Assembly: GCA_963698045.1 (NCBI GenBank)
Contig: OY969115.1
Span: 843,467-907,466, forward strand
From: an uncultured bacterium
GTDB taxonomy: Bacteria > Babelota > Babeliae > Babelales > Vermiphilaceae
Length of the DNA: 64,000 bases
Direction: 5' to 3'
Shown here: piece after piece, positions 8,752 through 22,710 of the stretch
How positions within the stretch are numbered: the stretch's first letter is position 1
Layout: the number at the start of each line of letters is the position of its first letter
Translations under genes and position numbers: made by a program
Notes under the pieces: model-generated
What the model saw: the letters and a program-made list of their open reading frames with translations, nothing else
What the model was told of the DNA's origin: nothing
Database searches by the model: none

Positions 8752-8985
8752 CTAATTTTTTAATCGTTCTCGTGCAATCTTAATATCACTTTTTTGACTC
8801 TTTTTATTCCCGGCAACAACTAAGATAATTATATTATTATTTATAAATCCATAATAGATACGATATCCAAATCTCCGTTCTCTTAATTCAAAAAGGCCAT
8901 AGCCTAATGGTTTGCTGTGGGGTAATTTTAACTCATTTCCAGTTTTTTCAAGTATTTTAATTTCTTTGGCAACAGCTTTAACTAC
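8752..8985 (-). pseudogene. RelE/ParE-superfamily (Gp49/HigB-like) toxin, N-terminally truncated at the repeat boundary
   Basis: The C-terminal ~75 aa (KPLGYGLFELRERRFGYRIYYGF..IIILVVAGNKKSQKSDIKIARERLKN) fit the family. The usual first ~25 residues are missing. No ATG; upstream sequence is the inverted repeat. Confidence 0.6.
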
Positions 8986-8990
8986 TCTCA

Positions 8991-9210
8991 ATAAAATAAA
9001 AATCTGACTTAGCTTAGAAGCCTGCGTGAGCCGGAGCTTTTTTATTGAGCTTGCGTAAATAAAAAAATGTAGGCGAATGCTGACCCGAAATGTTTGCACC
9101 CTACTTGCTGCGAACTGGACAAAACGCCTTGCGTTATTGGACTGAGCTGCAAGGATAGGTAAAACATAAGGGGCGCCACTTATGGCGCGGGTCCTAAGCG
9201 TATAGGGATC
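8991..9210 (-). repeat. Right copy of the inverted repeat flanking the TA cassette
   Basis: Reverse complement of 7859..8068. It supplies the artefactual N-terminal half of track ORF 8752..9213. Confidence 0.7.
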
Positions 9211-9468: not shown

Positions 9469-10578
9469 TTACAACAAATACAACTTCTTCACGACCACCT
9501 CCACCCCCATCTTCTCCTTCCCATCCTTTGGCACCCGTTCCAAAATAGCCAACACCCGCACTTCTACCTTACGGTATATCCCAATAGAAAGCACAGAAAA
9601 ATAACGCGGTTCAAAAGTAGTACTTAATAATGGCTCTATCCCTTTTGGCAATGCAGCAAACGGCTTGCCCTGCCATTGATTAATACCCTTATCCCAATCT
9701 TGCGCCCATGATGCATATGGCTTAAAATTTTTCTCTAATGCTTTAATAAGCTCCTTACGACCTTGCACATCTCCCGCTTGTGTTGTTTTTAGCCCCAAGG
9801 CAGCTGCAAGAGAGTTAGACAATAACCACGGGTCAACATGGGTTTGGTCATTGTACACTGTAAATATATCTGTTAAATAGACCGGCATTTTAGCTTGTGG
9901 TGCTTGCGGTGCCGCAACCTCTTTTTTGCTACGGGACGGTTCAAAATACAGCTGATCTTTAAACACCTCAAATTCTGGAATGTACAATAATTCTGTTACC
10001 TCTTGAATTGGTTGCCCTTCAGCTTTATAAAATTTATCTAATGCTGCCACTATATTGCCGGTTCCTGATTGTTTTACAATGCCCGCAAGTAACGTTTCTA
10101 ACTGCTTTTTAAGTCCACCATCTTTATCTTTGGCACCCTTAAATTCTTTCTTTTTAAAATCATAAAAATTATTAGGATTAATTTTGCCCTCTTCACTCGT
10201 GATAATAATTTCTATGGTGCCATCTATGCCATCAGAAGCCTCTTTTAAGTTAAAGGTCTGCATTCTATTTAAATAGGGCAACACCTCTTCTAAAAAATAG
10301 ACGGTTCTTTTATCTAACGGAGACTGTTTTTCTTGGCCTGGTTGTGCAGCATCTGGTGCCTTTTTTTTATCTACCGGTTTTCCTGCTAAGCGTGCCGCAG
10401 CAATCTGAACTCCTGATAACGCAAGCATTTTCGCCTTCTGACGGGAAATAGCAATAGTAAATTCTGGTACAGCATAATATCCCCGGTTAACCATGTACGT
10501 AATAAGTAACATAGCCGCAGAAATAATAAGCATGGTAAGAACAATAATGTAACCGGGTTTGTTTGTAGATTGGTTCAT
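9469..10578 (-). CDS. GspK-like minor pseudopilin (type II secretion)
   Basis: N-terminal hydrophobic anchor GYIIVLTMLIISAAMLLITYM without the pilin Glu5. GspK-like EEGKINPNN motif. Size 369 aa. Same strand as the gspF-J-like genes. Confidence 0.6.
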   Translation of the reverse strand: MNQSTNKPGYIIVLTMLIISAAMLLITYMVNRGYYAVPEFTIAISRQKAKMLALSGVQIAAARLAGKPVDKKKAPDAAQPGQEKQSPLDKRTVYFLEEVLPYLNRMQTFNLKEASDGIDGTIEIIITSEEGKINPNNFYDFKKKEFKGAKDKDGGLKKQLETLLAGIVKQSGTGNIVAALDKFYKAEGQPIQEVTELLYIPEFEVFKDQLYFEPSRSKKEVAAPQAPQAKMPVYLTDIFTVYNDQTHVDPWLLSNSLAAALGLKTTQAGDVQGRKELIKALEKNFKPYASWAQDWDKGINQWQGKPFAALPKGIEPLLSTTFEPRYFSVLSIGIYRKVEVRVLAILERVPKDGKEKMGVEVVVKKLYLL

Positions 10579-10738
10579 AATATTTATTTTTTTGGATTAT
10601 TAGGTACAGAGCTGTAATTACCATACTACAAGCATAGGCAAACTACCAAGTTTTTACGCACCCCAATAAGTCTCAATAAAAAAAGGACCTGCTCAACACA
10701 TATCCTTTTCTTATAACGGTACATTTAAAATTAAATAA

Positions 10739-12202
10739 TTACTTCTTTATAAAAACCTGCACCATGCCTTTTTCTTCCAAGCGCTTTTGCAACCAAGCTG
10801 GTAACTTCTTAAGTAATGCTATTGCTTCTGGCTGGTACAATTTTAACGGTTCAGGTTTTTTTGGCTTACCGTTCTTGTCTTTATATGCTTTACTTTCAAA
10901 AATTTTATGCAACAACAAGAAGGTTTTTACCCCATCCGTATTTACATACAGTGATTGTATAAAGGTCGGTAGTTCAACAAAAGGAATAAGATTCCATAAT
11001 CTAACAGCGCCATCTGCAGATGCAGATGCAACGGTATTTCCAGCTGGGCTAAATGCAACTGAATATATTGGTGAAAGCTTAATATCTCCATTTAAGAATA
11101 AGGTAGCAATAAGTTTTTTACTAGAAACATCCCACAATTTAATGGTGCCATCCCAAGATCCAGAAATCAGTGTTTTACCGTTTGGACTAAAAGCTACAGA
11201 ATGTACATCTTTCGTATGCCCTTTTAAAGTATAAAGCAATTTCTGATCCGCTACATCCCACAGCTTAATGGTCTTATCATTTGATCCAGTAGCTATTATT
11301 TTACCATCCGGACTAAATGCTACTGAATTAACTATACTAGAATGACCATGCAAAGTGGTAATAAGTTGTTGAGAAGAAAGATCCCATAACTGAACGGTCA
11401 TTTGATAATTAGCAACCGCAATTTTTTTACCATCGGGGCTAAACGCTACTGATAATGCAGTTGCACCATGCAAAATTGCAACATTTTGTTTACTTGCAAT
11501 ATCCCATAATCTAACAGTATCATCATGTGAACCAGAAGCCAGCTGCTTACCATCGGGGCTAAATGCTACTGAATTTACATAACCGGTATGACCACTTAAA
11601 GTGGCAATAGGTTTGTTACTGGAAATATTCCAAAGTTCAATAGTAGTATCATGGTTACCACCAGCAACCATTTTACCATCTGGACTAAATGCTATTGAGT
11701 TTATTATATGGCCAAATGTTCCTACTGTATTTCCCAATTTTAACGTAGTAATAGGCTGTTTATTAAAAACATCAAATAATTTAAGGCCCAAATCTCCATG
11801 ACCTCCATAAGCAAGAATTTTGCCATCTGGACTAAATGCTACTGAATATACAGTACTGCCCTGACCTGGTAACATTATTGGATTTATATCTATAAGAGAT
11901 TTAATCTGTTGTATAAAAGTTGAATTCTGTCTTACACTTTGTGTTGCTGGATCAAATAAATACTGCCCAATAACACGCCTAAAAGCTTCTGCTTTTTCAA
12001 CATTGTCTAACTCTGGATAAAATGGCTTTCCTGTCTCCTGACTTGGTAATTTAACCTCTGCAAGCCCTTTAACAATTTCTTGTATCTGCTGTTCAATAGC
12101 AGTCTGATCACTTTCTTTGGATTCCATTGCAGACACGGATAATGGCACCACTATTGCCAACCCTGCAAAAATAAGAATTTTTTTAATTGTATTCATGGTC
12201 AA
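10739..12202 (-). CDS. Signal-peptide WD40 repeat protein (7 blades), paralog 1
   Basis: Signal peptide MTMNTIKKILIFAGLAIVVPLSVSA. Seven SVAFSPDGK...LWD units. Termini near-identical to the 12225..13706 product. Confidence 0.85.
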   Translation of the reverse strand: MTMNTIKKILIFAGLAIVVPLSVSAMESKESDQTAIEQQIQEIVKGLAEVKLPSQETGKPFYPELDNVEKAEAFRRVIGQYLFDPATQSVRQNSTFIQQIKSLIDINPIMLPGQGSTVYSVAFSPDGKILAYGGHGDLGLKLFDVFNKQPITTLKLGNTVGTFGHIINSIAFSPDGKMVAGGNHDTTIELWNISSNKPIATLSGHTGYVNSVAFSPDGKQLASGSHDDTVRLWDIASKQNVAILHGATALSVAFSPDGKKIAVANYQMTVQLWDLSSQQLITTLHGHSSIVNSVAFSPDGKIIATGSNDKTIKLWDVADQKLLYTLKGHTKDVHSVAFSPNGKTLISGSWDGTIKLWDVSSKKLIATLFLNGDIKLSPIYSVAFSPAGNTVASASADGAVRLWNLIPFVELPTFIQSLYVNTDGVKTFLLLHKIFESKAYKDKNGKPKKPEPLKLYQPEAIALLKKLPAWLQKRLEEKGMVQVFIKK

Positions 12203-12224
12203 CTTCCCTTTAATAATATTTTAC

Positions 12225-13706
12225 TTAATTAGTTGTTTTGCTCGGGTTATCTTCCTGCTTTTTCTTTATAAAAACCTGCACCATGCGTTTTTCTTGCAAA
12301 CGCTTTTGCAACCAAGCTGGTAACTTCTTAAGTAATGCTATCGCTTCCGGCTGGTACAATTTTAACGGTTCAGGTTTTTTTGGCTTACCGTTCTTGTCTT
12401 TATCTGCATTACTCTCAAAAATTTTATGCAACAATAAGAAAGTTTTTAAACCATCCGTATTTGCATATAGCGATTGTATAAATAAAGGTAGTTCAACAAA
12501 AGGAGTAAGATTCCATAATCTAATAAAGCCATCCTTAGATCCAGAAGCAAGAGTTTTACCATCTGGACTAAATGCTACTGAAAATATAGCTTCGGTATGA
12601 CCAGGTAAGGTAACATTAAGTTGTTTACTATTTACATCCCATAATTTAATGGTCCCATCGAAAGATCCAGATGCAAGAATTTTGCCATCTGGACTATATG
12701 CTACTGAAGTTACAGACTTTTTATGACCCATTAAAGTAGCAATAGGTTTTTTACTACTTACGTCCCATAAATTAATAGTGGCCCCCGATCCAAAAGCAAC
12801 TGTTTTGCCATCTGGACTAAATACTACTGAACTTTGTAAAGAATGAGCATTTATAGTATCAATAAGTTTTTTACTACTCACACCCCATAAATTAATAATA
12901 TTATCCACAGATCCAGAAGCAAGAGTTTTGCCATCTGGACTAAATGCTACTGAAAGTACCGGCCGAGTATGACTATTTATAGTGGCAATAGGCTGTTTAC
13001 TACTCACATCCCATAATTTAATAGAATCATCAGATCCAGAAGCCAATATTTTGCCATCAGGACTAAATACTACTGAATATACCTTTTCAGTATGGCCAGG
13101 CAAGGTAGCATTAAGTTGTTTACTACTTACATCCCATAATTTGATGGTCTTATCCAAAGATCCAGAAGCCAATGTTTTGCCATCTGGACTAAATGCTACT
13201 GAATATACCGTTTCAGTATGGCCAGGCAAAGTAGCAATGAGCGTATTTTTTTTGGTATCCCATAACTTAATGATACCAAGGGGATATCCCGAAGCCAATG
13301 TTTCGCCATCTGGACTAAACGCTACTGAACGTACTGAAAAGACGTCGTAACGTTCTGAAAAGACGTTGTATTTTAAATTTGTTGAATTTATATCTATAAG
13401 AGATTTAATCTGTTGTATAAAGGTTGAATTCTGTCTTACACTTTGTGTTGCTGGATCAAATAAATATTGCCCAATAACACGTCTTAAAGCCTCTGCTTTT
13501 TCAACATTATCTAACTCTGGATAAAACGGCTTTCCCACAAACTCACTTGGTATTTTGACATCTGCCATCCCTTTTACAATTTCTTGTATCTGCTGTTCAC
13601 TAGCAGTCTGATCACTTTCTTTGGATTCCATTGCAGACACAGATAATGGCACCACTAATGCCAACCCTGCAAAAATAAGAATTTTTTTAATTGTATTCAT
13701 GGTCAA
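12225..13706 (-). CDS. Signal-peptide WD40 repeat protein (7 blades), paralog 2
   Basis: Same signal peptide and N- and C-terminal modules as paralog 1. Seven SVAFSPDGKTLASGS..IKLWDV units. Confidence 0.85.
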   Translation of the reverse strand: MTMNTIKKILIFAGLALVVPLSVSAMESKESDQTASEQQIQEIVKGMADVKIPSEFVGKPFYPELDNVEKAEALRRVIGQYLFDPATQSVRQNSTFIQQIKSLIDINSTNLKYNVFSERYDVFSVRSVAFSPDGETLASGYPLGIIKLWDTKKNTLIATLPGHTETVYSVAFSPDGKTLASGSLDKTIKLWDVSSKQLNATLPGHTEKVYSVVFSPDGKILASGSDDSIKLWDVSSKQPIATINSHTRPVLSVAFSPDGKTLASGSVDNIINLWGVSSKKLIDTINAHSLQSSVVFSPDGKTVAFGSGATINLWDVSSKKPIATLMGHKKSVTSVAYSPDGKILASGSFDGTIKLWDVNSKQLNVTLPGHTEAIFSVAFSPDGKTLASGSKDGFIRLWNLTPFVELPLFIQSLYANTDGLKTFLLLHKIFESNADKDKNGKPKKPEPLKLYQPEAIALLKKLPAWLQKRLQEKRMVQVFIKKKQEDNPSKTTN

Positions 13707-13744
13707 CCTTTACAGAATTAAGAATTACTCAAATTAACGGTAAA

Positions 13745-14153
13745 ATAAAACCCACTTACATATATCCTAATTGATATATCCTAATTGAAATAATACCAAA
13801 TACTGTCCCATTAAATCAATAGTTTTTATAATGATTATTTAAGGTTAAATTGGCACAAAAAAGCCTTAGAATAGGGATTAAGATTTTTACTCAGTTAAAG
13901 TTCAGATTCTGCATGCTAAAAGCAGAAGAAGGCAGGTTAACCTCTAACCCCATGCCAGAAGGTTGCCCATAGATGGGTATGGATCTGTAAAGATAAAAAA
14001 CACTCTGCACAAATCGCGTTAGGACTTGCAACTGCCAAGATTTGGATACTGGATATTTATAAAAAAAAGAGACATGCGTTTTACAACCCTGTTCACCCAG
14101 CGCTAAGTCCAAGGTTTTGGAATAGCTTATTTGGTAAATTTGTAAAATAACAC
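13745..14153. repeat. Intergenic repeat, copy a (upstream of WD40 paralog 2)
   Basis: Aligns with 16745..17095 and 17705..17960. Shared core AATCAATAGTTTTTATAATGATTATTTAAGGTTAAATTGGCACAAAAAAGCCTTAGAAT and downstream blocks. Confidence 0.65.
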
Positions 14154-14186
14154 TAAAAAGAGAGGCACTCATTAGCATGTCTCTCT
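14154..14186 (-). terminator. Rho-independent terminator candidate after the 14221..14943 gene
   Basis: Minus-strand AGAGAGACA / TGCCTCTCT stem (8 of 9 pairs) followed by UUUU, 35 nt after the stop. Confidence 0.45.
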
Positions 14187-14220
14187 TTTGATTCTCTCTT
14201 CTATTTTAAAAATAACTCTT

Positions 14221-14943
14221 TTATTTTCTTTCCTTTACCTCTAACACCGGTTTAAAATCATCTTTAATAGTTATGTTTACAGACCAGTCTTTGTTTCTAT
14301 TTATAAGTTTCATAGATTCTGATGATTTGGATTTGAAGCTTGGTAAAGTACTACTTAATATAAGTTTATCTCCTTCTACTTTTAAATAGTAGGTGACATA
14401 TTCTTCTGATCCGCCACCAGATTTAATTTCTGATCCGCCATCAGATTTAATTTTTGAAATTAGAGCTAGAGTAAGAATTTTAAATGTTCCAGCTTTTAAA
14501 CTATCTGTTTGATCTTTCTTAAGAGCAAGTATTTCTTTTTTAAATATTTCACCGGGTTTAATTTGTTTATGTTCTAGTGAAATTCCTGCATGAATAGTAT
14601 TTTCTTCTGGCATGTCTTTTAATAACTCTTTGAAATATTCTGATCCCTGCATTACACAAACGGGATCCCCGAAAGGGTCGCGCACACAGCGAAATCCTGC
14701 CAAACTTGGATCTGACGAAAAGCCTTGCAACATTGGAGTTGACGACTTGCCTCCAATTGGCGACTGGCTCTTTTGAATATATGCAACCTCTAAATCACCA
14801 TGCTCTAGGGTAGTTTTTACACTTCCACCACCTCCGCTGCCAGGCTTCAGTTCATTTTTAATACTTTCAACATAAATTTGACCTTCTGCAAACCCCATCC
14901 CAACGCTGGTTAAAAGCACCAGTAATGATAAAAACCTCTTCAT
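14221..14943 (-). CDS. Small secreted protein, family member D (240 aa)
   Basis: Signal peptide MKRFLSLLVLLTSVGMGFA, whose first 16 residues are identical to those of the 17100..17690 product. Shares GQIYVESIKNE and C-terminal KDWSVNITIKDD motifs with three paralogs. Confidence 0.7.
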   Translation of the reverse strand: MKRFLSLLVLLTSVGMGFAEGQIYVESIKNELKPGSGGGGSVKTTLEHGDLEVAYIQKSQSPIGGKSSTPMLQGFSSDPSLAGFRCVRDPFGDPVCVMQGSEYFKELLKDMPEENTIHAGISLEHKQIKPGEIFKKEILALKKDQTDSLKAGTFKILTLALISKIKSDGGSEIKSGGGSEEYVTYYLKVEGDKLILSSTLPSFKSKSSESMKLINRNKDWSVNITIKDDFKPVLEVKERK

Positions 14944-14979
14944 AGATATTCTCCTTATAAATAATTAAATTAAGCCCCA

Positions 14980-15504
14980 TTATGATTTTTTAGCTCTCAC
15001 CACAAACTTAACATCAGAATCATTTACAGTTATTTCAACTTCCCAGTTTTTCGTTAGTAAATCCTTATTTTTAAATATCGGATTAGGAAATCCTAATATC
15101 TCTGGAGTTACCAATACCAGTTGATTGTTTTTCGAGTTGTTTTCATCTTTCTTGAATTCTAAATAAAAATCCGCCGTATCACTTTTACCTTTATTTTTAA
15201 TTTTAATCCTTATAACAAATCTGTAAGCTTTCTTACTATTTGTCTCATTATTATTTAAATCAATAGCCAAAATTTCTGTTTCAAATTTTTTTGTTTCGTT
15301 TGGTAGAATAGTGAATTCTTTGGGTGTAAACACCCTAAAGATAGGTGCATTTTCGCTTTCCTTAATATCATCAGTAAACGTATGCCCAGGTGTTGTATTA
15401 TTGGTAACACTCTTAACATAAACCATCCCTTTTTTTAGCTCCTCTGCAAAAAGCATGCCCATGTTGCTCATCAATAATGTCAGTAAAACCATATATTTCT
15501 TCAT
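14980..15504 (-). CDS. Small secreted protein, family member C (174 aa)
   Basis: Signal peptide. GMVYVKSVTNNTTPGH and C-terminal KNWEVEITVNDS motifs shared with paralogs. Confidence 0.7.
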   Translation of the reverse strand: MKKYMVLLTLLMSNMGMLFAEELKKGMVYVKSVTNNTTPGHTFTDDIKESENAPIFRVFTPKEFTILPNETKKFETEILAIDLNNNETNSKKAYRFVIRIKIKNKGKSDTADFYLEFKKDENNSKNNQLVLVTPEILGFPNPIFKNKDLLTKNWEVEITVNDSDVKFVVRAKKS

Positions 15505-15570
15505 AAAATCTTCCTAATAAATAATTTAATTTATCTATCCTTCATGACCTAACTTAGTCCAAGTCGCTCA

Positions 15571-15771
15571 TCAAAATCCTTCGTCTCGATTCCACACTAC
15601 CGTTTTTTTGACTTCCTTTATTTTTTTTTCTGCTGCTGCAATTCTCTTACTTTTTGCTTTCTTTGCTTGCTTCTTTGCCGTGCTAGCTTTATTTTCTTCC
15701 GAAAACATATTCGTGTTAATACCTGTTAAAAGCATGAGTGATGATAACAATGATACAAATCTGCTTTTCAT
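15571..15771 (-). CDS. Small secreted Lys-rich peptide (66 aa)
   Basis: Signal peptide MKSRFVSLLSSLMLLTG and a basic AKKQAKKAKSKR region. Short, so less certain. Confidence 0.45.
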   Translation of the reverse strand: MKSRFVSLLSSLMLLTGINTNMFSEENKASTAKKQAKKAKSKRIAAAEKKIKEVKKTVVWNRDEGF

Positions 15772-15806
15772 ACTATTTTCCTTTTTTTCAAATTTAAAAG
15801 ACTAAA

Positions 15807-16127
15807 TTACTTTTTAAGGTGTACAGCCCTTTTTCTCTTACGACCCTCAGTTCCAGCACTCTTAACAGATCCAGATTGCTTAGATTTCAATAATGCTTCT
15901 TGTGCAGCTAGATCTTCCACTGGTCCTGTTGCCGCAGGTGCAGCAAATGCAGGCATAACCCCAGCTTTATCACCTCCCCAATCAAGCATAACCCCAGCTT
16001 TATCCCAGATAGGTCCTTCAGCCTGATCATAATCAGAACTGGGTTGTGCAATTTCTTTAACTGCTGTACCTTGCAATAGTACACTGCTAGTTAAAAAAAC
16101 CAGCAAAATAACTAAATATTTCTTCAT
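15807..16127 (-). CDS. Small secreted hypothetical protein (106 aa)
   Basis: Signal peptide MKKYLVILLVFLTSSVLLQG. Internal DKAGVM duplication. Basic tail. Confidence 0.55.
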   Translation of the reverse strand: MKKYLVILLVFLTSSVLLQGTAVKEIAQPSSDYDQAEGPIWDKAGVMLDWGGDKAGVMPAFAAPAATGPVEDLAAQEALLKSKQSGSVKSAGTEGRKRKRAVHLKK

Positions 16128-16185
16128 AAGAAATTCTCCTTTTATAAATAATTAGAAGCATTCATTGCTCATTTTTTATGAATAT

Positions 16186-16722
16186 CTATCGCTTAAATAT
16201 CGAGGGTATAATTGAATCGGTAGACATTACTTTTAACTGAGGACCATTGTTAGTGAAAACTATATTCACCAACCAGTCTTTTTCTCTGAGTTTTGCATCT
16301 TCAAATGATCCCTCTATTTTTTCTTTCTCAAAGGTTTTTTCCAAATTATTTACGTTTTGCAAAATCAATTTATTATCTTTGATATCTATATTATAAATTG
16401 CGAAATATAAGAAGGGACCTGATGGGTATTGAACAAGATAATTTTGCGCTATGCTGAATTCCACAACATTTTTTTTCTCTTGATTCAAGTTAAGAACAAG
16501 TAGTGGCGGACTGAACTGGTATACTTCATCCTTATTAAGAGTAATTAATTTAGATCCACCTTCTTTAATCACAATAAAATTTGTTGCAGGTATCTTAATA
16601 CCTTTAGCAACTTCATGTCCCTTTGTTGTTCTATTTTCAACGCTAAAAACATAAATAAGCCCTTTTGCAGATAAGGGAACTACATAAGTCAAAAACATAA
16701 ATAAAATTAAATATCTCTTCAT
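16186..16722 (-). CDS. Small secreted protein, family member B (178 aa)
   Basis: Signal peptide. GLIYVFSVENRTTKGH and C-terminal KDWLVNIVFTNN motifs shared with paralogs. Confidence 0.7.
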   Translation of the reverse strand: MKRYLILFMFLTYVVPLSAKGLIYVFSVENRTTKGHEVAKGIKIPATNFIVIKEGGSKLITLNKDEVYQFSPPLLVLNLNQEKKNVVEFSIAQNYLVQYPSGPFLYFAIYNIDIKDNKLILQNVNNLEKTFEKEKIEGSFEDAKLREKDWLVNIVFTNNGPQLKVMSTDSIIPSIFKR

Positions 16723-16744
16723 TGCGGCTCTCTCTTTTTAAACA

Positions 16745-17095
16745 ATTTCATATCCTAATTGTAATAATAACAAAGTAAGGTCTCCAAAATCAATAGTTTT
16801 TATAATGATTATTTAAAGTTAAATTGGCACAAAAAGGCCTTAGAATATGAATTAAGACTATATACTCAGTTAAGCTTCATAGTATGCATACCAAAAGGTA
16901 AAGAAGGTAGATTACCCTCCTCTAGTTTGCGGCAAACATGCCAAAAGGCGTGCCTAAAGATGATATGGATCTGTACACTCTACATAAAGCGCACGAATAA
17001 CTTGCAACTGCCAAAATTTGGATTATGGATATTTATAAAAAAAAAGAGACATGCTTTTTACACATGCCTCTTGAATTTTGTAAGTGATGTGATGC
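16745..17095. repeat. Intergenic repeat, copy b (upstream of 16186..16722)
   Basis: Aligns with copies a and c. It includes the terminator of the upstream gene. Confidence 0.65.
17036..17071 (-). terminator. Rho-independent terminator after the 17100..17690 gene
   Basis: Minus-strand AGAGGCAUG / CAUGUCUCU 9-bp stem (one G-U pair) followed by a 9-nt U-run. Confidence 0.6.
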
Positions 17096-17099
17096 ACAC

Positions 17100-17690
17100 T
17101 TAATTGTTACTGAGAGGTCTTACTTTTATCTCTGTCTTTTTGTCTTTAATAACTAAATCAACTGCCCAGTCGTTGTTCATGAGATCTATACTTTTAGATT
17201 CAGATGATTTTATAGTGGCAGGTGCTTTAAATATTAATTTATCACCTTCAACTACTAATCCACCAAATGAATTATCATCAAATGTTGCACCTATATCACT
17301 AGCTATAATCTCTGAAGTCTGAACTCTCATCTGAATGGCAAATGTTCCATTTTGTAAACTATTTGTTAGACCTTCATTTAAATCAAGTGCAAGTATTTTC
17401 TTTCTAAAGGTACTTCCTTGTTGTACATTATATTGTTGTTGTACATTATATTGTTGTACATTATATTTCGAGGGTTTCTTCTGAGGATTTTTTTTCGAGG
17501 GTCTCTTCTGAGCTAAAGTACTTCCTCCAGCATTAAAGTTAGTATAAATCCTTATGTCGTGTTCCCCCTCTGCTAAAGTACTTCCACCCCCGCGGATCTC
17601 ATTCTGCACACTTTCAACATAAATACGTCCTTTTGCAGAAACCATCCCAACACTGGTTAAAAGCACCAGTAATGATAAAAACCTCTTCAT
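17100..17690 (-). CDS. Small secreted protein, family member A (196 aa)
   Basis: Signal peptide MKRFLSLLVLLTSVGMVSA. GRIYVESVQNE and C-terminal NNDWAVDLVIKDK motifs. Internal QQYNVQ micro-repeats. Confidence 0.7.
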   Translation of the reverse strand: MKRFLSLLVLLTSVGMVSAKGRIYVESVQNEIRGGGSTLAEGEHDIRIYTNFNAGGSTLAQKRPSKKNPQKKPSKYNVQQYNVQQQYNVQQGSTFRKKILALDLNEGLTNSLQNGTFAIQMRVQTSEIIASDIGATFDDNSFGGLVVEGDKLIFKAPATIKSSESKSIDLMNNDWAVDLVIKDKKTEIKVRPLSNN

Positions 17691-17704
17691 AAGAGTCTCC
17701 TTTA

Positions 17705-17960
17705 TTATATAAACAACTAAAGCATATCTCCTAATTGTAATAATAACAAAGCAAAGCCTCTAAAATCAATAGTTTTTACAATGATTATTTAAAACTAAAT
17801 TGGCACAAAAAGGCCTTAGAATGGGAATTTGGAGTATTACTCAGTTGGGCTTAATAGTATGCATGCTAAAAGGTGAAGACGGCAGCTTGTCCTCTAACCC
17901 CGCAAACATGCCAGAAGGCGGCCCATTAGACGGTCTAAAACGGGGGCCAATATGGGTTCC
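17705..17960. repeat. Intergenic repeat, copy c (overlaps the 3' end of the gspJ-like gene)
   Basis: Aligns with copies a and b. Here the distal part is in frame as the last ~40 codons of the 17841..19022 ORF. Confidence 0.65.
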
Positions 17961-19022
17961 CTCACGAATTCCAACTACTCCTGAAGCGCCAACATTTTTT
18001 GGAAATGCACCCGCAATTTGATGTGGCGGTCCGGAACTAACCGGAACATCTATTGAAGCCGGCTGCCCCTGTGCTTTATCTGTTTTGCTTGGTGTTGTTT
18101 CTGGTTTTTTTGCACTAGGCGGTGGTGGTGTTGGTGACTTTGGAGCAGATAATTGAGATGGTGGTAAAATTGGCACAGTAAATTTCCAGGTACTGTCCCG
18201 CTGATATGCGGCATCCCACAATACTAACGTAAATTCTGCAAAACGGGGCAATGGTGGCATGTCAGATTTTTGTTGGTCCTCTTTTTTTTGCTGACCCCAT
18301 TCTTTTGCTGTTTTATATTCTATCTTCTGCTCTTTAGGTTCTTCCTCTTTTTTTTCTCCCGGCTTTGCTGCAGCTTGTTTTTTTACTGGAACATAATAAT
18401 AGAGTACGGAAAGATTTTTTATGCCATCCAGCAGTTCATATGATCTGAACTCCTGTTTTTCTACCGGTATTTTAGGATCAAAAAATTCATACGCTAATTC
18501 ATCACCCTCTTGTCGCAGTAATTGGTAGGAATTTTTGTGCGCAGGGTCTGGCTGCAATCTATATACCATGCGCGCTAATTTAGGTTGTGGACGCCCCGCT
18601 TTTTTACTCCAGTACACCGGCATTGGATTATTGCTAATAAAGGTAAGCGTTTGCAAATTGGCACCTTTATTTTCACTAAAGAAAATTTTATCTACGGTTG
18701 GCTTTGGTTTTTCTGGCTCTTTCTTTTCTTCTTTTTTCTCTTCTTTTTTTGGCTCTTTTTTGTCACCCTCTTTTGCCTGTTCTTCTTTGGGTTCTTCTGC
18801 TTTTGCCGGTGGAGTTACCGGAACAAAGGCACCCATAAGATCATGTTCTAACTGATTCTGCGCTAACATAACACGGGATGTTTTATGAATAACGTTATCA
18901 AGATTTTTTTTGGTACGGTTTATTTGATATAAAGAAGTAAATAACGCAGCTAATAACATTCCGGAAATTACGGTTCCAATAAGCAGTTCTAATAAAGTAA
19001 AACCGGGAGTAGTATGCTTCAT
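17841..19022 (-). CDS. GspJ-like pseudopilin with a Lys/Glu-rich insert and a Pro-rich tail
   Basis: Prepilin-type N-terminus MKHTTPGFTLLELLIGTVISGMLLAALF. Position after the gspI-like gene. Low-complexity EEPKEEQAKEGDKKEPKKEEKKEEKKEPEKPKP insert. Confidence 0.6.
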   Translation of the reverse strand: MKHTTPGFTLLELLIGTVISGMLLAALFTSLYQINRTKKNLDNVIHKTSRVMLAQNQLEHDLMGAFVPVTPPAKAEEPKEEQAKEGDKKEPKKEEKKEEKKEPEKPKPTVDKIFFSENKGANLQTLTFISNNPMPVYWSKKAGRPQPKLARMVYRLQPDPAHKNSYQLLRQEGDELAYEFFDPKIPVEKQEFRSYELLDGIKNLSVLYYYVPVKKQAAAKPGEKKEEEPKEQKIEYKTAKEWGQQKKEDQQKSDMPPLPRFAEFTLVLWDAAYQRDSTWKFTVPILPPSQLSAPKSPTPPPPSAKKPETTPSKTDKAQGQPASIDVPVSSGPPHQIAGAFPKNVGASGVVGIREGTHIGPRFRPSNGPPSGMFAGLEDKLPSSPFSMHTIKPN

Positions 19023-19408
19023 TGTTTTATCTTTTCCGGTTTAAAAAGAAAATACAACGCCCGTTCTTTTTGCGGCCTATTTTCTTGCCGCCAACTATAC
19101 GTCACTTGCTCACGGTACATATCCGGAATTCCTTTAAGTGCAGACGCATCCCCAACGGGGCGTAGTTCATACGTAAACCCCTTCTCTTGCACTGTTGCTT
19201 GTTTTGCATCTTCTGGTTGCGTGCGGTGCATGGTTGCCAAAAACTGTTCAGCTTCTAATAATCTGCGCAAATGGTTTGCACGCTGAACTACTGATCGCAC
19301 TACTTGTGTTTGCAAGGCAAATAGTGGTGTTAGCACAATGCCCATTATGGCAACTGCAAGCATTACTTCTATAAGCATTTGACCAGAATTATTTTTGGAA
19401 TTCATCAT
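19019..19408 (-). CDS. GspI-like minor pseudopilin
   Basis: Start chosen at MMNSKNNSGQMLIEVMLAVAIMGIVL (prepilin-like G-x-x-L-I-E). Small size. 4-nt overlap with the downstream gene. Confidence 0.5.
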   Translation of the reverse strand: MMNSKNNSGQMLIEVMLAVAIMGIVLTPLFALQTQVVRSVVQRANHLRRLLEAEQFLATMHRTQPEDAKQATVQEKGFTYELRPVGDASALKGIPDMYREQVTYSWRQENRPQKERALYFLFKPEKIKQ

Positions 19409-19952
19409 ATATTTTAAACTGGGCCGTAAAAGGATTAAGTACCAAACCAACCGGATACGGCTTGCCTGCTTTTTTATCTTTAGTATCTACCAGATTAATA
19501 ATAACTTCTTGGGTTAAACCACCGGGCATAACAAAAAACCATGTAGAAAAATTTCTGGGATCATTATACCGTTTCATTTCATCAAAACGTTCAATTAAAA
19601 AATTCTTAATCACGTACCGGTCAGGAAATTTCATAATGGCATGGGCAGATTTTACCGGCACAGAAATTGGGTTACCATCACGATCTTTTTGTCCCGTTAC
19701 TTGTTGAACAGAAACAGTATTGTTATTTTTTTTAAAATCAAAAAGTACTTTAGTTGGCTTACCACTCACCATGGCCTGGCGCCATGCAAAACCAACTACG
19801 GTATTAAGCTGAGCCAAAAACTGCTCGCGCTCTTGACGGGGTTTGCGTGCTCCCAAATTAGGAAGCATCATAGAAGCAATAATACCAACCACCAATAACG
19901 CAAGCAGCAGTTCTATCAAGGTAAATGCGGGTGTATTATATTTCCCAGGCAT
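19389..19952 (-). CDS. GspH-like minor pseudopilin
   Basis: Prepilin N-terminus MPGKYNTPAFTLIELLLALLVVGIIASMM. 187 aa. Located between the gspG-like and gspI-like genes. Confidence 0.6.
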   Translation of the reverse strand: MPGKYNTPAFTLIELLLALLVVGIIASMMLPNLGARKPRQEREQFLAQLNTVVGFAWRQAMVSGKPTKVLFDFKKNNNTVSVQQVTGQKDRDGNPISVPVKSAHAIMKFPDRYVIKNFLIERFDEMKRYNDPRNFSTWFFVMPGGLTQEVIINLVDTKDKKAGKPYPVGLVLNPFTAQFKIYDEFQK

Positions 19953-20379
19953 CTATTTTATTCTTTCCTTTTTTACCACCAGACCCGTAAGAATACAGGT
20001 CATACGGATGCTGCCCGTCTGGTGTTAAACGATAGACTAATGGATTTCCCCATCCATCTTTTGGCGTACCTTTTTTATCTAGATATGGTCCACCCCAACC
20101 TTTACCCCGTTCGCCCTCTGGTTGTTTTATTAAATCTTGGAGAGTAGATGGATAGTTGTCTGTATCTGTTTGGAAAGAGTCTATACCACCTTTTACTGCA
20201 CGCAATATTGCAATAGTAGAAGTACGTTTAGCACGGTCCATTAATGTTTTTGCAATAAAGAAAGATCCGCCCAATAAAATACCACCAACGGCAATTACCA
20301 ACATTAACTCTATTAAGGTAAAGCCCTGTTTATTAGTGCGCAGTGAACGCCGCACCACTAATCGCTCTGCATACGTCAT
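19936..20379 (-). CDS. gspG: Type II secretion major pseudopilin
   Basis: KQGFTLIELMLVIAVGGIL cleavage/methylation motif. C-terminal GGPYL..DGWGNPLVY..YDLYSYGSGGK pattern typical of GspG. Confidence 0.75.
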   Translation of the reverse strand: MTYAERLVVRRSLRTNKQGFTLIELMLVIAVGGILLGGSFFIAKTLMDRAKRTSTIAILRAVKGGIDSFQTDTDNYPSTLQDLIKQPEGERGKGWGGPYLDKKGTPKDGWGNPLVYRLTPDGQHPYDLYSYGSGGKKGKNKIDAWEI

Positions 20380-20403
20380 GTAAACCCTTTCACATATAGT
20401 TTG

Positions 20404-21618
20404 TTAAACGCCAATACTTTGACTTAATTGCATCATTGGACTACCTATTGCATAGATAATAAAGCCAACCACTAGTGCCATAACTACTAACATTATAGGG
20501 CTAATTAAACTGGTGGCATTATCTATAAGTTCATTCAATTCAACTTCATAATTTTGTGCTACCAAGAGCAACATGCTGTCCAGCTGTCCGCTCTCTTCAC
20601 CTGTTTTAATTAAATGAATTGCAATAGGGGGGAACATATTTGTTTGTTTTAGATACTGCGCTATTTTACCCTGTTTTATTATTTTATCACGCGCATCAGA
20701 GAGTGTAGATGCTAAAATTCGATTATCTATTACCTTTACTACAATATCTAATGCTTCTGCTAAATTTACTCCGCCTTCTAATAACAACCCCAGCGTATAA
20801 CTAAACTGCACCACCGCATTAGTTTTGGTAACATACTTAATAACTGGCATACGAACTTTAAAGGTGTCCCACATGCGCCCACCAGAAGCAGAATTCTTCC
20901 AGTACCTAAATGCAATAATAGCAACAATTGGTATACCCAAAAAGAGATAAAAATATTTAGTGAGAGCGTCACCGGCACCAACTACAAAACGGGTTGCCCA
21001 CGGTAATTTGGTACCAATAGAAGTAAAGATGTCTGACATTTGGGGAATTACTACGGTAAGTAATACCACCACCACTAATGCCACAATAATTAATTGAATG
21101 AGCGGATATTGGAACGCACCTCTAATTTTTTTTGCGATCTCATCACGCCGTTCTAAATAACTGGTAAGGCGATCCAAAATAACTTCTAACCGGCCACTTG
21201 CTTCCCCCGCGCGCACTAGTTGAACGTAAATAGTGTCAAATATACTGGGATATTTTTTTAATGCTTCTGCAAAAGATGAACCTTGTTTAATGTCATCTTT
21301 AATAGTCACTACAATACTGCGCAATGTACCAGTAAACTGTTCTGTTAAGAGTTCCAGTGCTTCTACTAAGGGAATGCCAGACTTAAGTAATACCGCCAAT
21401 TGTTTGGTAAACAGAATTCTATCTTTGGGTTTAATTCCGCGTCTCAAAAGACGTTCAAAAAAACCACCTTGTGATGCTTGCGTGGTAGTGGTAACAGAGA
21501 TAACATACATACCCTGTTTAGAAAGCAATTCTTTAACGCTCGCTTGGCTGGGGGCATCTATAATGCCTTTTATCTTTTTGCCATCTTTGCCATACGCTTC
21601 ATAAGAATATAAAGCCAT
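20404..21618 (-). CDS. gspF: Type II secretion / type IV pilus platform protein (GspF/PilC family)
   Basis: ~400 aa, duplicated T2SS-F domain, three TM segments. N-terminus MALYSYEAYGKDGKK is typical. AAGGA RBS before the ATG at 21618. Confidence 0.85.
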   Translation of the reverse strand: MALYSYEAYGKDGKKIKGIIDAPSQASVKELLSKQGMYVISVTTTTQASQGGFFERLLRRGIKPKDRILFTKQLAVLLKSGIPLVEALELLTEQFTGTLRSIVVTIKDDIKQGSSFAEALKKYPSIFDTIYVQLVRAGEASGRLEVILDRLTSYLERRDEIAKKIRGAFQYPLIQLIIVALVVVVLLTVVIPQMSDIFTSIGTKLPWATRFVVGAGDALTKYFYLFLGIPIVAIIAFRYWKNSASGGRMWDTFKVRMPVIKYVTKTNAVVQFSYTLGLLLEGGVNLAEALDIVVKVIDNRILASTLSDARDKIIKQGKIAQYLKQTNMFPPIAIHLIKTGEESGQLDSMLLLVAQNYEVELNELIDNATSLISPIMLVVMALVVGFIIYAIGSPMMQLSQSIGV

Positions 21619-21744
21619 CCGCTTTTCCTTACAAAAAGCCACTAAAGTGGCAATGCTCTCATTTTCTCATTGAATAAATTTACTATTTCATGATAGGCTA
21701 TGCTGATGTTATATGTAACCACTGTATCACAAAGGGGATCTAAT

Positions 21745-22710
21745 ATGAAATCTCTCACAAAATATGCATTAATACTCCTTGTGCTGCCCACTGTAATAAT
21801 AGGCGCGGCACAAAAAGAACAAGCAAATATTCTTGCAAGCCAGGCATTGCAAGCATTACAAGACGAATTAAAAAATCCACGATATGTAAAAGAAATTTTA
21901 CCCAATGATTTTTCTTATCTTAAACAACTACTAGAATACAACAAACAAACTGACCAACCACGCACCTTTACCCGTTCAGTATTTAAACTGTTTACCAACT
22001 TGGTAAAAGGAGTGCGTTACATTAACGCCTATGCCTTCTCTGACTTGTTGGAACATATGCCAACATTACTGCAAAAATCTTTTGTAATGTACCGCACAGA
22101 AAATTTACTCCGCAATGTTACTATTTATGAATTAGACGCCTGTGACCGCTTTAAAAAGAGCGTCTCTACGCTGTTAATCTCTTCTTTTAATAATAACTAT
22201 CAAGAGTTCAAAAAAAATCCTCAAGGATTTTTGGATACCTTAAGTAATGAGATTTTAGATCTTAATGAAGAAGAAACCAAAGTAGAATTACTCCGCCAAT
22301 CCGTCATTCGCTTTTTAGAGATTGCATTAAATAAATTGGTGTGGAGCGTAGAAGACAAAGAAGAAAGTTGGAACTCTGTTAAGAAAATATCTAACCAACT
22401 TGCAGGCTTTATGGACAAAGCAATCTTGTGTGACGTAAATGATCTTGATGATCTGTATTGGACGTTAGTACACCGCTACTGCTATTTCTTAGAACTTAAC
22501 AGCTCAGAATTCACCTTAGAATTTTATGAAAAAATAAAAGCAGATATCTCTACATCACATTGCTTAATGCTTGAATTAGAAGAACAAGATTCTTTTATAG
22601 AAAAAAAGAGCAGCGTGTTTTTAAAAACTATTATGGCAAATGAAGCGCACCAACGTGCGTTGCTCTTAGCAATGCAAGAAAATGCCCAAACATCTGTAGT
22701 GCGTAATTAA
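21745..22710 (+). CDS. Secreted helical hypothetical protein (321 aa)
   Basis: ATG at 21745 preceded by AAGGGGA. Signal peptide MKSLTKYALILLVLPTVIIGAAQ. Divergent from gspF. Confidence 0.65.
   Translation: MKSLTKYALILLVLPTVIIGAAQKEQANILASQALQALQDELKNPRYVKEILPNDFSYLKQLLEYNKQTDQPRTFTRSVFKLFTNLVKGVRYINAYAFSDLLEHMPTLLQKSFVMYRTENLLRNVTIYELDACDRFKKSVSTLLISSFNNNYQEFKKNPQGFLDTLSNEILDLNEEETKVELLRQSVIRFLEIALNKLVWSVEDKEESWNSVKKISNQLAGFMDKAILCDVNDLDDLYWTLVHRYCYFLELNSSEFTLEFYEKIKADISTSHCLMLELEEQDSFIEKKSSVFLKTIMANEAHQRALLLAMQENAQTSVVRN

What the first reader, a model, noticed from the sequence alone, without database searches (positions are those of the whole stretch)
9469..21618. Pseudopilin operon gspF-G-H-I-J-like is split from its gspK-like gene by a ~7-kb island of secreted proteins
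On the minus strand the order is gspF, gspG, gspH-like, gspI-like, gspJ-like (21618 down to 17841). Six small signal-peptide genes and two signal-peptide WD40 genes follow. Only then comes a GspK-like gene (10578..9469; hydrophobic anchor, EEGKINPNN motif). In canonical operons K directly follows J. Either the island inserted into the operon, or these secreted proteins are co-transcribed cargo or accessory factors of the machine. No gspC, D, E, L or M is present in the window, and gspF is preceded by a divergent gene.
Basis: partly seen in the sequence, partly recalled or inferred. Interest (0 to 1): 0.7.

Follow-up and report, generated by a model that had tools for sequence, protein, structure and literature searches.

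The report
Secreted-protein genes inserted into pseudopilin operon
In one uncultured Dependentiae (TM6) bacterium, a 7.3-kb block of fast-evolving secreted-protein genes has landed and multiplied between the last two genes of an otherwise tightly conserved type II secretion-like pseudopilin operon; this looks like ordinary, lineage-specific genome churn rather than a new part of the machine.

Summary
On the minus strand lie gspF, gspG, three pilin-like genes (H/I/J by position), six small signal-peptide genes, two signal-peptide WD40 genes, then a gene whose predicted fold matches only GspK/XcpX. No gspC/D/E/L/M is in the window.

The window is from a Dependentiae (TM6/Babeliales) genome. In 59 related loci with J upstream of K on the same strand, 57 have them overlapping or at most 21 nt apart. 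The two closest relatives (K 70-74% identical) also have J and K adjacent. The 7,262-nt island is therefore a lineage-specific insertion.

It grew in place. The last ~90 nt of J plus a ~124-nt promoter-like leader occur three times, heading three units: s1; s2-s6; WDa-WDb. Each unit ends in a terminator-like hairpin.

Four small proteins form an ORFan family. Its other members, in this genome and one other, sit beside tandem secreted-WD40 arrays, away from gsp genes.

The "inserted island" alternative is supported. "Conserved accessory factors" is not. Type II secretion of these proteins cannot be excluded, but about 60% of genes in the window carry signal peptides. Ordinary; low to moderate interest.

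The parts
20404..21618 (-). gspF-like inner-membrane platform gene (404 aa from the ATG at 21618; the ORF extends to a GTG at 21642)
   Evidence: Pfam T2SSF 1.7e-55 with two domains. TIGR02120 GspF 3e-105, 352.7 bits, below the equivalog cutoff of 424. Relatives encode 404 aa.
19936..20379 (-). gspG-like major pseudopilin
   Evidence: Pfam T2SSG 1.2e-18 and N_methyl 7e-9. TIGR01710 4.7e-22.
19389..19952 (-). Minor pseudopilin, GspH-like by position. It has Ala instead of Gly at -1 of the prepilin site (NTPA|FTLIE).
   Evidence: N_methyl 2e-4. ComGD 2.4e-10 and GspH 8e-8, both below cutoff. The family profile matches only pilin N-terminal helices in the PDB.
19019..19408 (-). Minor pseudopilin, GspI-like by position and size. 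The likely start is MMNSKNNSG|QMLIE; the ORF extends to 19450.
   Evidence: N_methyl 3.7e-4. Weak XpsI hit, 2e-3. The profile hits only pilin N-termini.
17841..19022 (-). Minor pseudopilin, GspJ-like (393 aa, with Lys/Glu-rich and Pro-rich disordered inserts). Its C-terminus is native.
   Evidence: N_methyl 1.9e-4. The core of the AF2 model has pLDDT >85. The top Foldseek hit is the EpsI:EpsJ entry 3cfi_H, E 2.4e-3, probability 1.0; the next hit is 0.42. The protein aligns end to end with J of L069 and L070.
17717..17840 (-). Leader copy 1: ~124 nt directly after the J stop, carrying a promoter-like TTGATT-N18-TATTAT with an upstream TG
   Evidence: There are three copies in the window and none expected by chance.
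17100..17690 (-). s1, a small secreted protein (196 aa) of the ORFan 's-family'
   Evidence: Signal peptide MKRFLSLLVLLTSVGMVSA|K. Paralogous to s2, s5 and s6 (phmmer 1e-5 to 1e-21).
17044..17072 (-). Terminator-like hairpin (11-bp stem plus a U9 run) after s1
   Evidence: Fold -16.9 kcal/mol, z -3.1.
16741..16954 (-). Relic of the J 3' end (~90 nt, relic stop at 16865-16867) plus leader copy 2 (16741-16864)
   Evidence: (D6). The local alignment of the relic to the J tail has z = 24.8 against shuffles. The relic translates to ...LPSLPFGMHTMKLN*, against ...LPSSPFSMHTIKPN* for J.
14221..16722 (-). Unit 2: s2 (16186-16722), s3 (15807-16127), s4 (15571-15771), s5 (14980-15504) and s6 (14221-14943). 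Intergenic gaps are 35-66 nt.
   Evidence: All have Sec-type signal peptides. s2, s5 and s6 belong to the s-family. s3 and s4 have no relatives. No Pfam or NCBIfam family passes its cutoff.
14050..14190 (-). Terminator-like long stem (15 bp enclosing a ~95-nt insert) plus a U8 run after s6. It is homologous to the hairpin after s1.
   Evidence: D13, D20. Fold -38.7 kcal/mol, z -4.0.
13767..13980 (-). Second relic of the J 3' end (relic stop at 13891-13893; it forms the tail of the spurious 95-aa ORF 13891-14178) plus leader copy 3 (13767-13890)
   Evidence: z = 23.1. The relic translates to ...GQPSGMGLEVNLPSSAFSMQNLNFN*.
12225..13706 (-). WDa: a secreted 7-blade WD40 protein with a specific ~115-aa N-terminal region and a ~90-aa C-terminal region
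   Evidence: WD40 7.9e-85. 58% identical to WDb. The 5' 326 nt are 92.6% identical to WDb.
10739..12202 (-). WDb: the tandem paralogue of WDa
   Evidence: WD40 9.5e-77.
10640..10738 (-). WDb-K spacer containing a terminator-like A/U-rich hairpin. The remaining ~95 nt upstream of K must hold K's own promoter (inferred).
   Evidence: Fold -23.4 kcal/mol, z -2.7. No similarity to the leader or to the J 3' end.
9469..10578 (-). Divergent GspK-like minor pseudopilin (369 aa). Its prepilin-like N-terminus is KPG|YIIVL with no Glu at +5, and it carries the SEEGKINPN motif.
   Evidence: Foldseek finds only XcpX/GspK: 9a1f_T 5.8e-9, 6utu_C, 5vtm_X, 3ci0_K 2.3e-5. It belongs to a family of 51 proteins confined to Dependentiae and retains all family-invariant residues.
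21700..22710 (+). Conserved divergent neighbour of gspF ('div', 336 aa, signal peptide or TM segment, no known family)
   Evidence: Found divergently adjacent to gspF in 49 of the loci. No Pfam or NCBIfam hit.

Best explanation
The window comes from a Dependentiae (TM6/Babeliales) genome. Across that phylum the conserved cluster is div<- gspF-G-H-I-J-K, usually followed by an MlaD-domain gene, with J and K translationally coupled (their coding sequences overlap).

In this lineage only, a cassette encoding a secreted ORFan protein, with its own promoter-like leader and terminator, became inserted exactly between J and K. The cassette was then amplified in place by tandem duplications whose upstream end lay inside J. 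This left two relics of the J 3' end, each fused to a copy of the leader.

The copies diverged and gained further genes: s2-s5 and a pair of secreted WD40 genes from the genome's WD40 superfamily. The result is three autonomous transcription units: leader-s1-T, leader-s2..s6-T and leader-WDa-WDb-T.

K is intact and conserved. It is now separated from J by three terminator-like hairpins, so it must be expressed from its own promoter in the ~95 nt upstream of it.

The island genes are most likely members of the large, fast-turning-over pool of Sec-exported, host-directed proteins typical of Dependentiae. They are not components of the pseudopilus machine.

Shown: gene identities, the phylum-wide J-K adjacency, absence of the island in the nearest relatives, the J relics and triplicated leader, and paralogues elsewhere beside WD40 arrays. 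Inferred: the promoters and terminators, the order of duplication events, independent K expression, and a host-directed role.
For: - Phylum-wide J-K adjacency. In the 59 loci with J upstream of K on the same strand, the median J-K distance is -4 nt and 57 are at most 21 nt.
- Nearest relatives. L069 and L070 (K 74% and 70% identical) have J-K adjacent, with conserved upstream synteny.
- J is complete. It aligns to its native C-terminus.
- Triplicated element. The J 3' end plus leader occurs three times (D6). The J relics score z = 23-25 against shuffles. Leader copies are 80-86% identical, against 62-72% for the relics. The same promoter-like hexamers sit upstream of s1, s2 and WDa.
- Terminator-like hairpins follow s1, s6 and WDb.
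- The s-family. Its four island members are paralogues. No homologue lies near K in any of the other loci. Only three other relatives were found among 1.84 billion representative proteins. Two lie on a contig of the same 1,731,632-nt length as the one carrying K, taken to be the same genome.
- Their contexts: one at the end of five tandem secreted WD40 genes (L073/L074), one alone between NurA and NifU genes (L072), and one in another assembly inside a six-gene WD40 array beside ftsY (L071).
- Composition. Island GC is 34.1%, like the LRR array (34.7%). F-J is 40.1% and K is 40.2%.
- K can work apart from J. It is separated from F-J in L011, L015 and L045, whose K proteins are only 30-37% identical to one another, so these are independent events.
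- The arrangement is reproduced in independent assemblies.
Against: - There is no transcript data. The promoter scan as a whole is not enriched over shuffles (44 sites found against 44.2 expected), so the promoter call rests on its triplication and position.
- No terminator lies between J and s1. s1 could therefore be read through from the pseudopilin operon.
- All eight island genes are on the operon strand and all carry Sec signal peptides. That is what T2SS cargo would look like.
- No integrase, transposase, tRNA or flanking direct repeat explains how the first cassette arrived.
- Synteny downstream of K is also broken relative to L069 and L070. Relocation of K, rather than insertion, cannot be formally excluded.
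- The genome's closest sampled relatives are still fairly distant (K 70-74%), so the insertion cannot be dated.
Confidence: 0.75

Rival explanations
1. The island proteins are dedicated substrates (cargo) or accessory factors of this type II secretion-like machine. They would have been recruited into the operon so that they are co-expressed with the pseudopilins.
For: - They are on the same strand as the operon, between J and K.
- All eight have Sec-type signal peptides.
- No terminator-like structure lies between the J stop and s1, and the leader is unstructured (z -1.0). s1 at least could be co-transcribed.
- From my own knowledge: T2SS operons with embedded or adjacent substrates exist, for example pulA next to pulC-O and sslE/yghJ upstream of gspC-M in E. 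coli.
Against: - The island is absent from 57 of 59 related loci and from the two nearest relatives.
- s-family paralogues and related WD40 genes lie elsewhere, unlinked to gsp genes.
- Three terminator-like hairpins and three promoter-like leaders break the region into separate units.
- Signal peptides are not discriminating. About 60% of genes in this window have one (by eye), and 44% of CDS do in another Dependentiae (PMC6561590).
Confidence: 0.15
2. K, not the island, moved. The secreted-protein genes were already downstream of the operon, and a local rearrangement placed K beyond them.
For: - Synteny downstream of K also differs from L069 and L070, and the MlaD-domain gene that follows K in most Dependentiae is missing.
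- K is flanked downstream by a toxin-antitoxin cassette with ~190-nt inverted repeats.
- The J|K junction has broken independently in L011, L015 and L045.
Against: - L069 and L070 have no s-family or closely related WD40 genes downstream of K.
- The K 5' end is intact, and no relic of K or of the J-K overlap lies after J.
- The net outcome, a lineage-specific separation, would be the same.
Confidence: 0.07
3. The split is an assembly artefact caused by repeats (WD40 repeats, duplicated leaders).
For: The island is rich in internal repeats, and short-read contigs break at the WD40 genes.
Against: - An independent ENA contig of 17.8 kb covers gspF to beyond K at 99.88% identity, with the same order.
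- One Logan contig (L067) spans the WDb-K junction at 100% identity, and a second (L068) covers K and most of its upstream spacer at 100%.
- The J relics are diverged (62-72%), so they would not collapse in assembly.
Confidence: 0.02

Closest known systems
Canonical type II secretion pseudopilin block gspF-G-H-I-J-K (for example Klebsiella pul, E. coli gsp, P. aeruginosa xcp; tip complex GspK-I-J, PDB 3CI0/5VTM)
   Same: The gene order is F, G, three small or minor pilins, then K. G carries the T2SSG domain. K has the GspK fold, including the helical insertion, and like GspK lacks Glu+5. J-K coupling is the rule in the phylum.
   Different: - H, I, J and K are too diverged for the curated HMM cutoffs.
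- gspC, D, E, L, M and O are not in the neighbourhood.
- A conserved divergent gene of unknown family sits next to gspF, and in most relatives an MlaD-domain gene follows K.
- In this genome J and K are 7.26 kb apart.
T2SS loci with substrates encoded in or beside the operon (pulA with pulC-O; sslE/yghJ-pppA-yghG-gspC-M in E. coli). This comparison rests on my own knowledge.
   Same: Genes for Sec-exported proteins are physically linked to T2SS genes on the same strand.
   Different: In those systems the linkage is conserved among relatives and the substrate is co-regulated. Here the linkage is unique to one lineage, the units have their own leaders and terminators, and paralogues sit elsewhere.
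Tandem arrays of eukaryote-like repeat proteins (ankyrin, WD40, LRR, F-box) and signal-peptide ORFans in Dependentiae and other amoeba-associated bacteria (PMC4776705, PMC6561590, PMC4378268)
   Same: - Secreted WD40 paralogues lie in tandem, with lower GC than the core genes.
- Their signal peptides and ends are conserved while the middles are variable.
- An LRR array of the same style is present in the same window at 49387-57576.
- WD40 arrays with an s-family gene occur at L071 and L073.
   Different: This array sits inside a core operon, and it preserves relics of the neighbouring core gene that document in-situ duplication.
Classical genomic islands and integrative elements
   Same: A lineage-specific block with deviant GC interrupts conserved synteny.
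   Different: There is no integrase or transposase, no tRNA target (the only tRNA is at 48433) and no flanking direct repeats. Growth by local tandem duplication is documented instead.

Membership tests
GspK (T2SS minor pseudopilin K) | Prepilin-type N-terminus: a short leader ending in Gly, followed by a hydrophobic helix | tested here: met
   MNQSTNKPG|YIIVLTMLIISAAMLLITYMV. The model has one long N-terminal helix, residues 8-65.
GspK (T2SS minor pseudopilin K) | Lacks the Glu+5 that is conserved in the other pseudopilins | tested here: met
   Position +5 is Leu in the window. The family consensus GYILxLT has no Glu. G, H, I and J all have E at +5.
GspK (T2SS minor pseudopilin K) | Passes the curated sequence models (Pfam T2SSK; NCBIfam NF037980) | tested here: not met
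   No Pfam hit at E<=0.1. NF037980 gives E 8e-4, 19 bits, against a cutoff of 130. The family profile finds no PDB sequence.
GspK (T2SS minor pseudopilin K) | GspK fold: a pilin core with a large helical insertion domain | tested here: met
   The AF2 model has pLDDT 84.6. The only four Foldseek PDB hits with E<1 are XcpX or GspK chains (5.8e-9 to 2.3e-5, probability 1.0).
GspK (T2SS minor pseudopilin K) | Encoded directly after gspJ | tested here: met
   Met for the family: 57 of the 59 loci with J upstream of K on the same strand have them within 21 nt, as do L069 and L070. Not met in this window, where the distance is 7,262 nt.
GspK (T2SS minor pseudopilin K) | Forms the K-I-J tip complex that primes pseudopilus assembly | not testable with these tools
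   Needs complex modelling or biochemistry.
GspJ (minor pseudopilin J) | Sequence or fold match to GspJ/EpsJ | tested here: inconclusive
   TIGR01711 gives E 0.015. The Foldseek top hit is 3cfi_H (EpsI:EpsJ entry), E 2.4e-3, TM 0.45 on the target, on a model with mean pLDDT 63. I did not verify that chain H is EpsJ.
GspH / GspI (minor pseudopilins) | A specific match beyond the shared pilin N-terminus | tested here: inconclusive
   Only N_methyl and sub-threshold GspH, ComGD and XpsI hits. Family profiles align only to pilin N-terminal helices in the PDB. The assignment rests on order and size.
Complete type II secretion system | Secretin GspD, ATPase GspE, platform proteins GspC/L/M and prepilin peptidase GspO present | tested here: not met
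   None found among ORFs of at least 150 aa in the 64-kb window. The rest of the genome could not be searched. The literature reports T2SS components and two gspD copies as core in TM6 (PMC4776705).
T2SS substrate or accessory protein (the island genes) | Conserved genetic linkage or co-occurrence with the T2SS genes | tested here: not met
   No s-family gene and no WD40 gene with the WDa/WDb-specific terminal regions lies near K in L001-L065, L069 or L070. Their relatives lie at WD40 arrays or alone.
T2SS substrate or accessory protein (the island genes) | Sec or Tat signal peptide for periplasmic export | tested here: met
   By inspection all eight have a basic n-region, a hydrophobic core and an AxA-like site. 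No signal-peptide predictor was available, and the base rate in the window is about 60%.
Mobile genomic island | Integrase or transposase, tRNA or att target, flanking direct repeats | tested here: not met
   No such Pfam hits. The only tRNA is at 48433. No repeats flank 10579-17840.

The most novel reading that the evidence does not exclude
The s-family/WD40 module would be a genuine substrate set of the Dependentiae type II-like machine. Its capture directly behind gspJ would put at least s1 under read-through control of the pseudopilin operon. The repeated 'J-tail plus leader' segment would act as a recombination substrate that keeps adding secreted-protein genes at this site. If so, this would be a natural cargo-to-machine linkage in a phylum where no secretion substrate is known.
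Probability: 0.12. Interest if true: 0.55.

Novelty: new member of a known kind. Interest (0 to 1): 0.3.

Why it matters
The result corrects an attractive reading. The split is a lineage-specific insertion, not a new architecture of the secretion machine.

Three things are useful to keep.

1. Dependentiae have a phylum-wide conserved cluster: a divergent gene of unknown family, then gspF-G-H-I-J-K, usually followed by an MlaD-domain gene. Its sixth gene is a GspK that the curated sequence models miss, so it is currently left as "hypothetical".

2. K tolerates being uncoupled from J. This has happened at least four times independently, which bears on how tip-complex stoichiometry is set.

3. 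The relics of J inside the island are a clean, datable record of how arrays of secreted, probably host-directed proteins grow by in-situ duplication in these obligate intracellular bacteria.

None of this is very surprising to a specialist.

Tried and rejected
An 11-sequence alignment worked.
- The K family profile against PDB sequences found nothing. The fold search was needed.
- H, I and J family profiles against PDB sequences gave only the generic pilin N-terminal helix.
I spent the last homologue search on J to get an admissible alignment.
- The word-indexed search of the s-family in 5.8 billion proteins returned only self hits. The exhaustive search of representatives found three relatives. 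The weak fourth hit, P0059 (E 2.9e-4, a repeated 'GDWVVEITV' motif), was not pursued.
- The exact look-up of P0057 found no contig. Its cluster mate P0082 gave the context.
- The WDa/WDb-specific N- and C-terminal regions have no relatives in the K neighbourhoods. They match the WD40 arrays only weakly at the C-terminus (E 1e-4). The WD40 genes 2-8 kb downstream of K in about 11 loci are only distant WD40 relatives, so I rejected them as orthologues.
- I searched for a relic of the J 3' end or of the leader upstream of K and found none.
- The leader was searched for in the 72 loci held at that point and occurs only in the same-strain contig L066. Rfam finds nothing in the island, and the leader is not significantly structured.
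- I looked for the hallmarks of a classical mobile island and found none.
- The metagenome DNA scan was not used, because the protein searches already covered those sources.

Full report
**1. What is in the sequence**

- gspF is secure: Pfam T2SSF 1.7e-55 and TIGR02120 3e-105. The ATG at 21618 gives the 404 aa seen in relatives.
- gspG is secure: T2SSG 1.2e-18.
- The next three genes carry only the prepilin N-methylation motif plus sub-threshold hits to GspH/ComGD, XpsI and GspI/J.
- Family profiles built from relatives match the PDB only through the generic pilin N-terminal helix.
- For the J-like gene, an AlphaFold model from 21 homologues has a confident core but a mean pLDDT of 63, because of Lys/Glu-rich and Pro-rich inserts. 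Its single non-noise Foldseek hit is the EpsI:EpsJ entry 3cfi_H (E 2.4e-3; next hit 0.42).
- H, I and J are therefore pilin-like proteins in the right order and size. J has moderate fold support.

**2. The K-like gene**

The product of 9469-10578 has no Pfam hit and only a 19-bit NCBIfam GspK hit against a cutoff of 130.
- It belongs to a family of 51 proteins, all unnamed. The family has an invariant E-x-G-K...N motif and a prepilin-like N-terminus that lacks Glu+5.
- Its model (pLDDT 84.6, pTM 0.81) matches four PDB chains, all XcpX/GspK (E 5.8e-9 to 2.3e-5, probability 1.0). Nothing else has E below 2.
- It is a divergent GspK by fold, N-terminal features and genomic position, although it fails the curated sequence thresholds.

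**3. Where the window comes from and what the normal arrangement is**

A scan of species-representative genomes with the K alignment gave 65 loci. Nearly all are labelled Dependentiae, TM6 or Babeliales. I mapped the window's proteins onto ORFs of those loci.
- The conserved layout is a divergent gene of unknown family ('div'), then F, G, H, I, J, K.
- In the 59 loci with J upstream of K on the same strand, the median J-to-K distance is -4 nt, and 57 are at most 21 nt apart.
- The exceptions are L017 (376 nt), L059 (163 nt), L045 (the div-F..J block inverted next to K), and L011 and L015 (no F-J within 10 kb upstream).
- The K proteins of L011, L015 and L045 are only 30-37% identical to one another. 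In all three, K stays attached to a downstream MlaD-domain gene that follows K in most loci. These are independent breaks at the same junction.
- The two nearest relatives of the window, from Logan assemblies (K 74% and 70% identical), share the upstream synteny. Their J and K overlap as ATGA or TAATG.
- The 7,262-nt interval in the window is therefore a lineage-specific insertion.

**4. It is not an artefact**
- An independent ENA contig covers gspF to beyond K with the same order at 99.88% identity. The differences are 5 mismatches and 8 small indels, which explain the split gene calls there.
- Short-read contigs from two other runs are 100% identical to the window around K. One (L067) reaches into the WDb 3' end, so it spans the WDb-K junction.

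**5. Anatomy of the island**

All eight genes have Sec-type signal peptides.
- s1, s2, s5 and s6 are paralogues (phmmer 1e-5 to 1e-21). They share the start of the mature protein, G-x-I-Y-V-x-S-V-x-N, and a C-terminal KDW-x-V-x-I motif.
- s3 and s4 have no relatives.
- WDa and WDb are 58% identical seven-blade WD40 proteins. Their 5' ends are 92.6% identical and their 3' ends 82% identical at the DNA level, while the blades are more diverged.
- A ~124-nt leader directly follows the J stop. It carries TTGATT-N18-TATTAT preceded by TG.
- The leader recurs upstream of s2 and upstream of WDa, each time preceded by a relic of the last ~90 nt of J, including its stop context.
- The relics are highly significant (z = 23-25 against shuffles). 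They still translate to J-like tails...LPSLPFGMHTMKLN* and ...LPSSAFSMQNLNFN*, against ...LPSSPFSMHTIKPN* in J.
- J's own tail is native, because it aligns with the relatives.
- s1 and s6 are each followed by homologous terminator-like stems with U-runs. A third hairpin follows WDb.
- The structure is therefore J | leader-s1-T | J'-leader-s2-s3-s4-s5-s6-T | J'-leader-WDa-WDb-T | K.
- A T-J' joint is exactly what a tandem duplication produces when one end lies inside J and the other just past the terminator. Two such joints imply at least two rounds.
- The leaders are better conserved (80-86%) than the J relics (62-72%), and far better than the coding regions at the protein level (28-41% amino-acid identity). 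This fits constraint or gene conversion on the promoter and signal-peptide part, with free divergence of the mature proteins.

**6. Where the island genes belong**
- None of the other loci has an s-family gene, or a WD40 gene with the WDa/WDb-specific termini, near K.
- The word-indexed search of 5.8 billion proteins found only self hits.
- The exhaustive search of 1.84 billion representatives found three further relatives.
- Two of them lie on a contig of the same 1,731,632-nt length as the one carrying K, so I take them to be in the same genome, outside this window. One sits at the end of five tandem secreted WD40 genes (L073/L074). The other stands alone between NurA and NifU genes (L072).
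- The third is in another assembly, inside a six-gene WD40 array next to ftsY (L071).
- Those WD40 proteins share with WDa/WDb a signal peptide ending AME(T/S) and, weakly (E 1e-4), a C-terminal LP-x-x-LQ...V-x-F motif.
- The recurrent association is therefore s-family with secreted WD40 arrays, not s-family with gsp genes.
- Island GC is 34.1%. That matches the LRR array elsewhere in the window (34.7%) and differs from F-J (40.1%) and K (40.2%).

**7. Interpretation**

The best explanation (confidence about 0.75) is this: a secreted-protein cassette was inserted at the J|K junction, then amplified and diversified in place. That yields three self-contained units and leaves K to be expressed on its own.
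- The literature fits this reading. T2SS components are core in TM6. WD40 and other eukaryote-like repeat proteins are proposed host-interaction factors (PMC4776705). Signal-peptide ORFans make up a large part of a Dependentiae proteome (44% of CDS, PMC6561590).
- The cargo/accessory reading (about 0.15) is not excluded for cargo. s1 has no terminator between it and J, and all products enter the periplasm.
- However, there is no conserved linkage, and signal peptides are the rule here: about 60% of the window's genes by eye.
- Relocation of K rather than insertion (about 0.07) remains possible, because the downstream synteny is also broken.
- Misassembly is effectively excluded.

**8. Limits**
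- Promoters and terminators are predictions. The promoter scan as a whole is not enriched over shuffles.
- No signal-peptide predictor, transcript data or whole-genome access was available.
- I did not verify the identity of 3cfi chain H as EpsJ.
- The nearest relatives are still 26-30% diverged in K, so the age of the insertion is unknown.

**9. Verdict**

The 'insertion' alternative is supported, and the 'part of the machine' alternative is not. This is a divergent but recognisable type II-like pseudopilin operon with an incidental, lineage-specific expansion of secreted-protein genes: a new member of a known kind, with interest about 0.3.

Noticed in passing
L001-L065 at about 11,000-12,800 (for example L011:11132-12739); absent from the window: A conserved MlaD-domain gene of about 535-570 aa (Pfam MlaD 3e-16) directly follows the GspK-like gene in most of the 65 Dependentiae loci. 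It stays attached to K in the three loci where K is separated from F-J. It is missing after K in the window and in its two nearest relatives.
   Followed up: partly
window 21700-22710 (+): A 336-aa protein with a signal peptide or TM segment and no Pfam or NCBIfam family lies divergently next to gspF in the window and in 49 of the related loci. It could be an unrecognised component of the assembly platform (C/L/M-like).
   Followed up: partly
window 23112-25745, 31123-34968, 35464-39267 (-): Three paralogous large secreted proteins (877, 1281 and 1267 aa) with no known domain. One or two homologues sit upstream of 'div' in L069, L070, L018, L027, L036, L040 and L053. The family is therefore a conserved neighbour of the gsp cluster, and it is expanded in this genome.
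   Followed up: partly
window 7890-9172: A RelE/Gp49-type toxin gene (8752-8991) and an HTH antitoxin gene (8428-8739) are bracketed by ~190-nt inverted repeats (7890-8079 and 8982-9172; the core 55 nt are 95% complementary), directly downstream of K. This may be a mobile or invertible toxin-antitoxin cassette.
   Followed up: no
window 8149-8184 and 22923-22958 (also 22760-22800): Short GC-rich repeats (86% identical) lie on either side of the whole div-gsp-island-K-TA segment. They are embedded in GC-rich patches that give spurious ORFs. No Rfam match.
   Followed up: no
window 49387-57576 (-): A run of five signal-peptide genes. Four carry LRR repeats (49387-50733, 51978-53357, 53367-54458, 54458-55660) and three of those have near-identical N-termini (MELCMKKILFFI...AMES), which resemble the WD40 signal peptides (KKILIFAGLA...SAMES). 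The 633-aa gene at 55675-57576 has no Pfam domain, and a NADAR-domain protein is interleaved at 50761-51906. GC is 34.7%.
   Followed up: partly
window 19389-19952 (-): The H-like pseudopilin has Ala rather than the near-universal Gly at -1 of the prepilin peptidase site (NTPA|FTLIE). The consensus of the aligned relatives has Gly there.
   Followed up: no
L017:9594-9971 and L059:9726-9890: Two other Dependentiae loci have unusually long J-K spacers (376 and 163 nt). I did not examine them for small ORFs or relics.
   Followed up: no
window 10739-13706: WDa and WDb have near-identical 5' ends (92.6% over 326 nt) and similar 3' ends (82%), but more diverged WD40 blades (about 75%). Within the blades, the repeat consensus SVAFSPDGK-LASGS-D-TIKLWD is highly uniform. 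The pattern suggests gene conversion at the ends, or diversification and shuffling of the blades.
   Followed up: no
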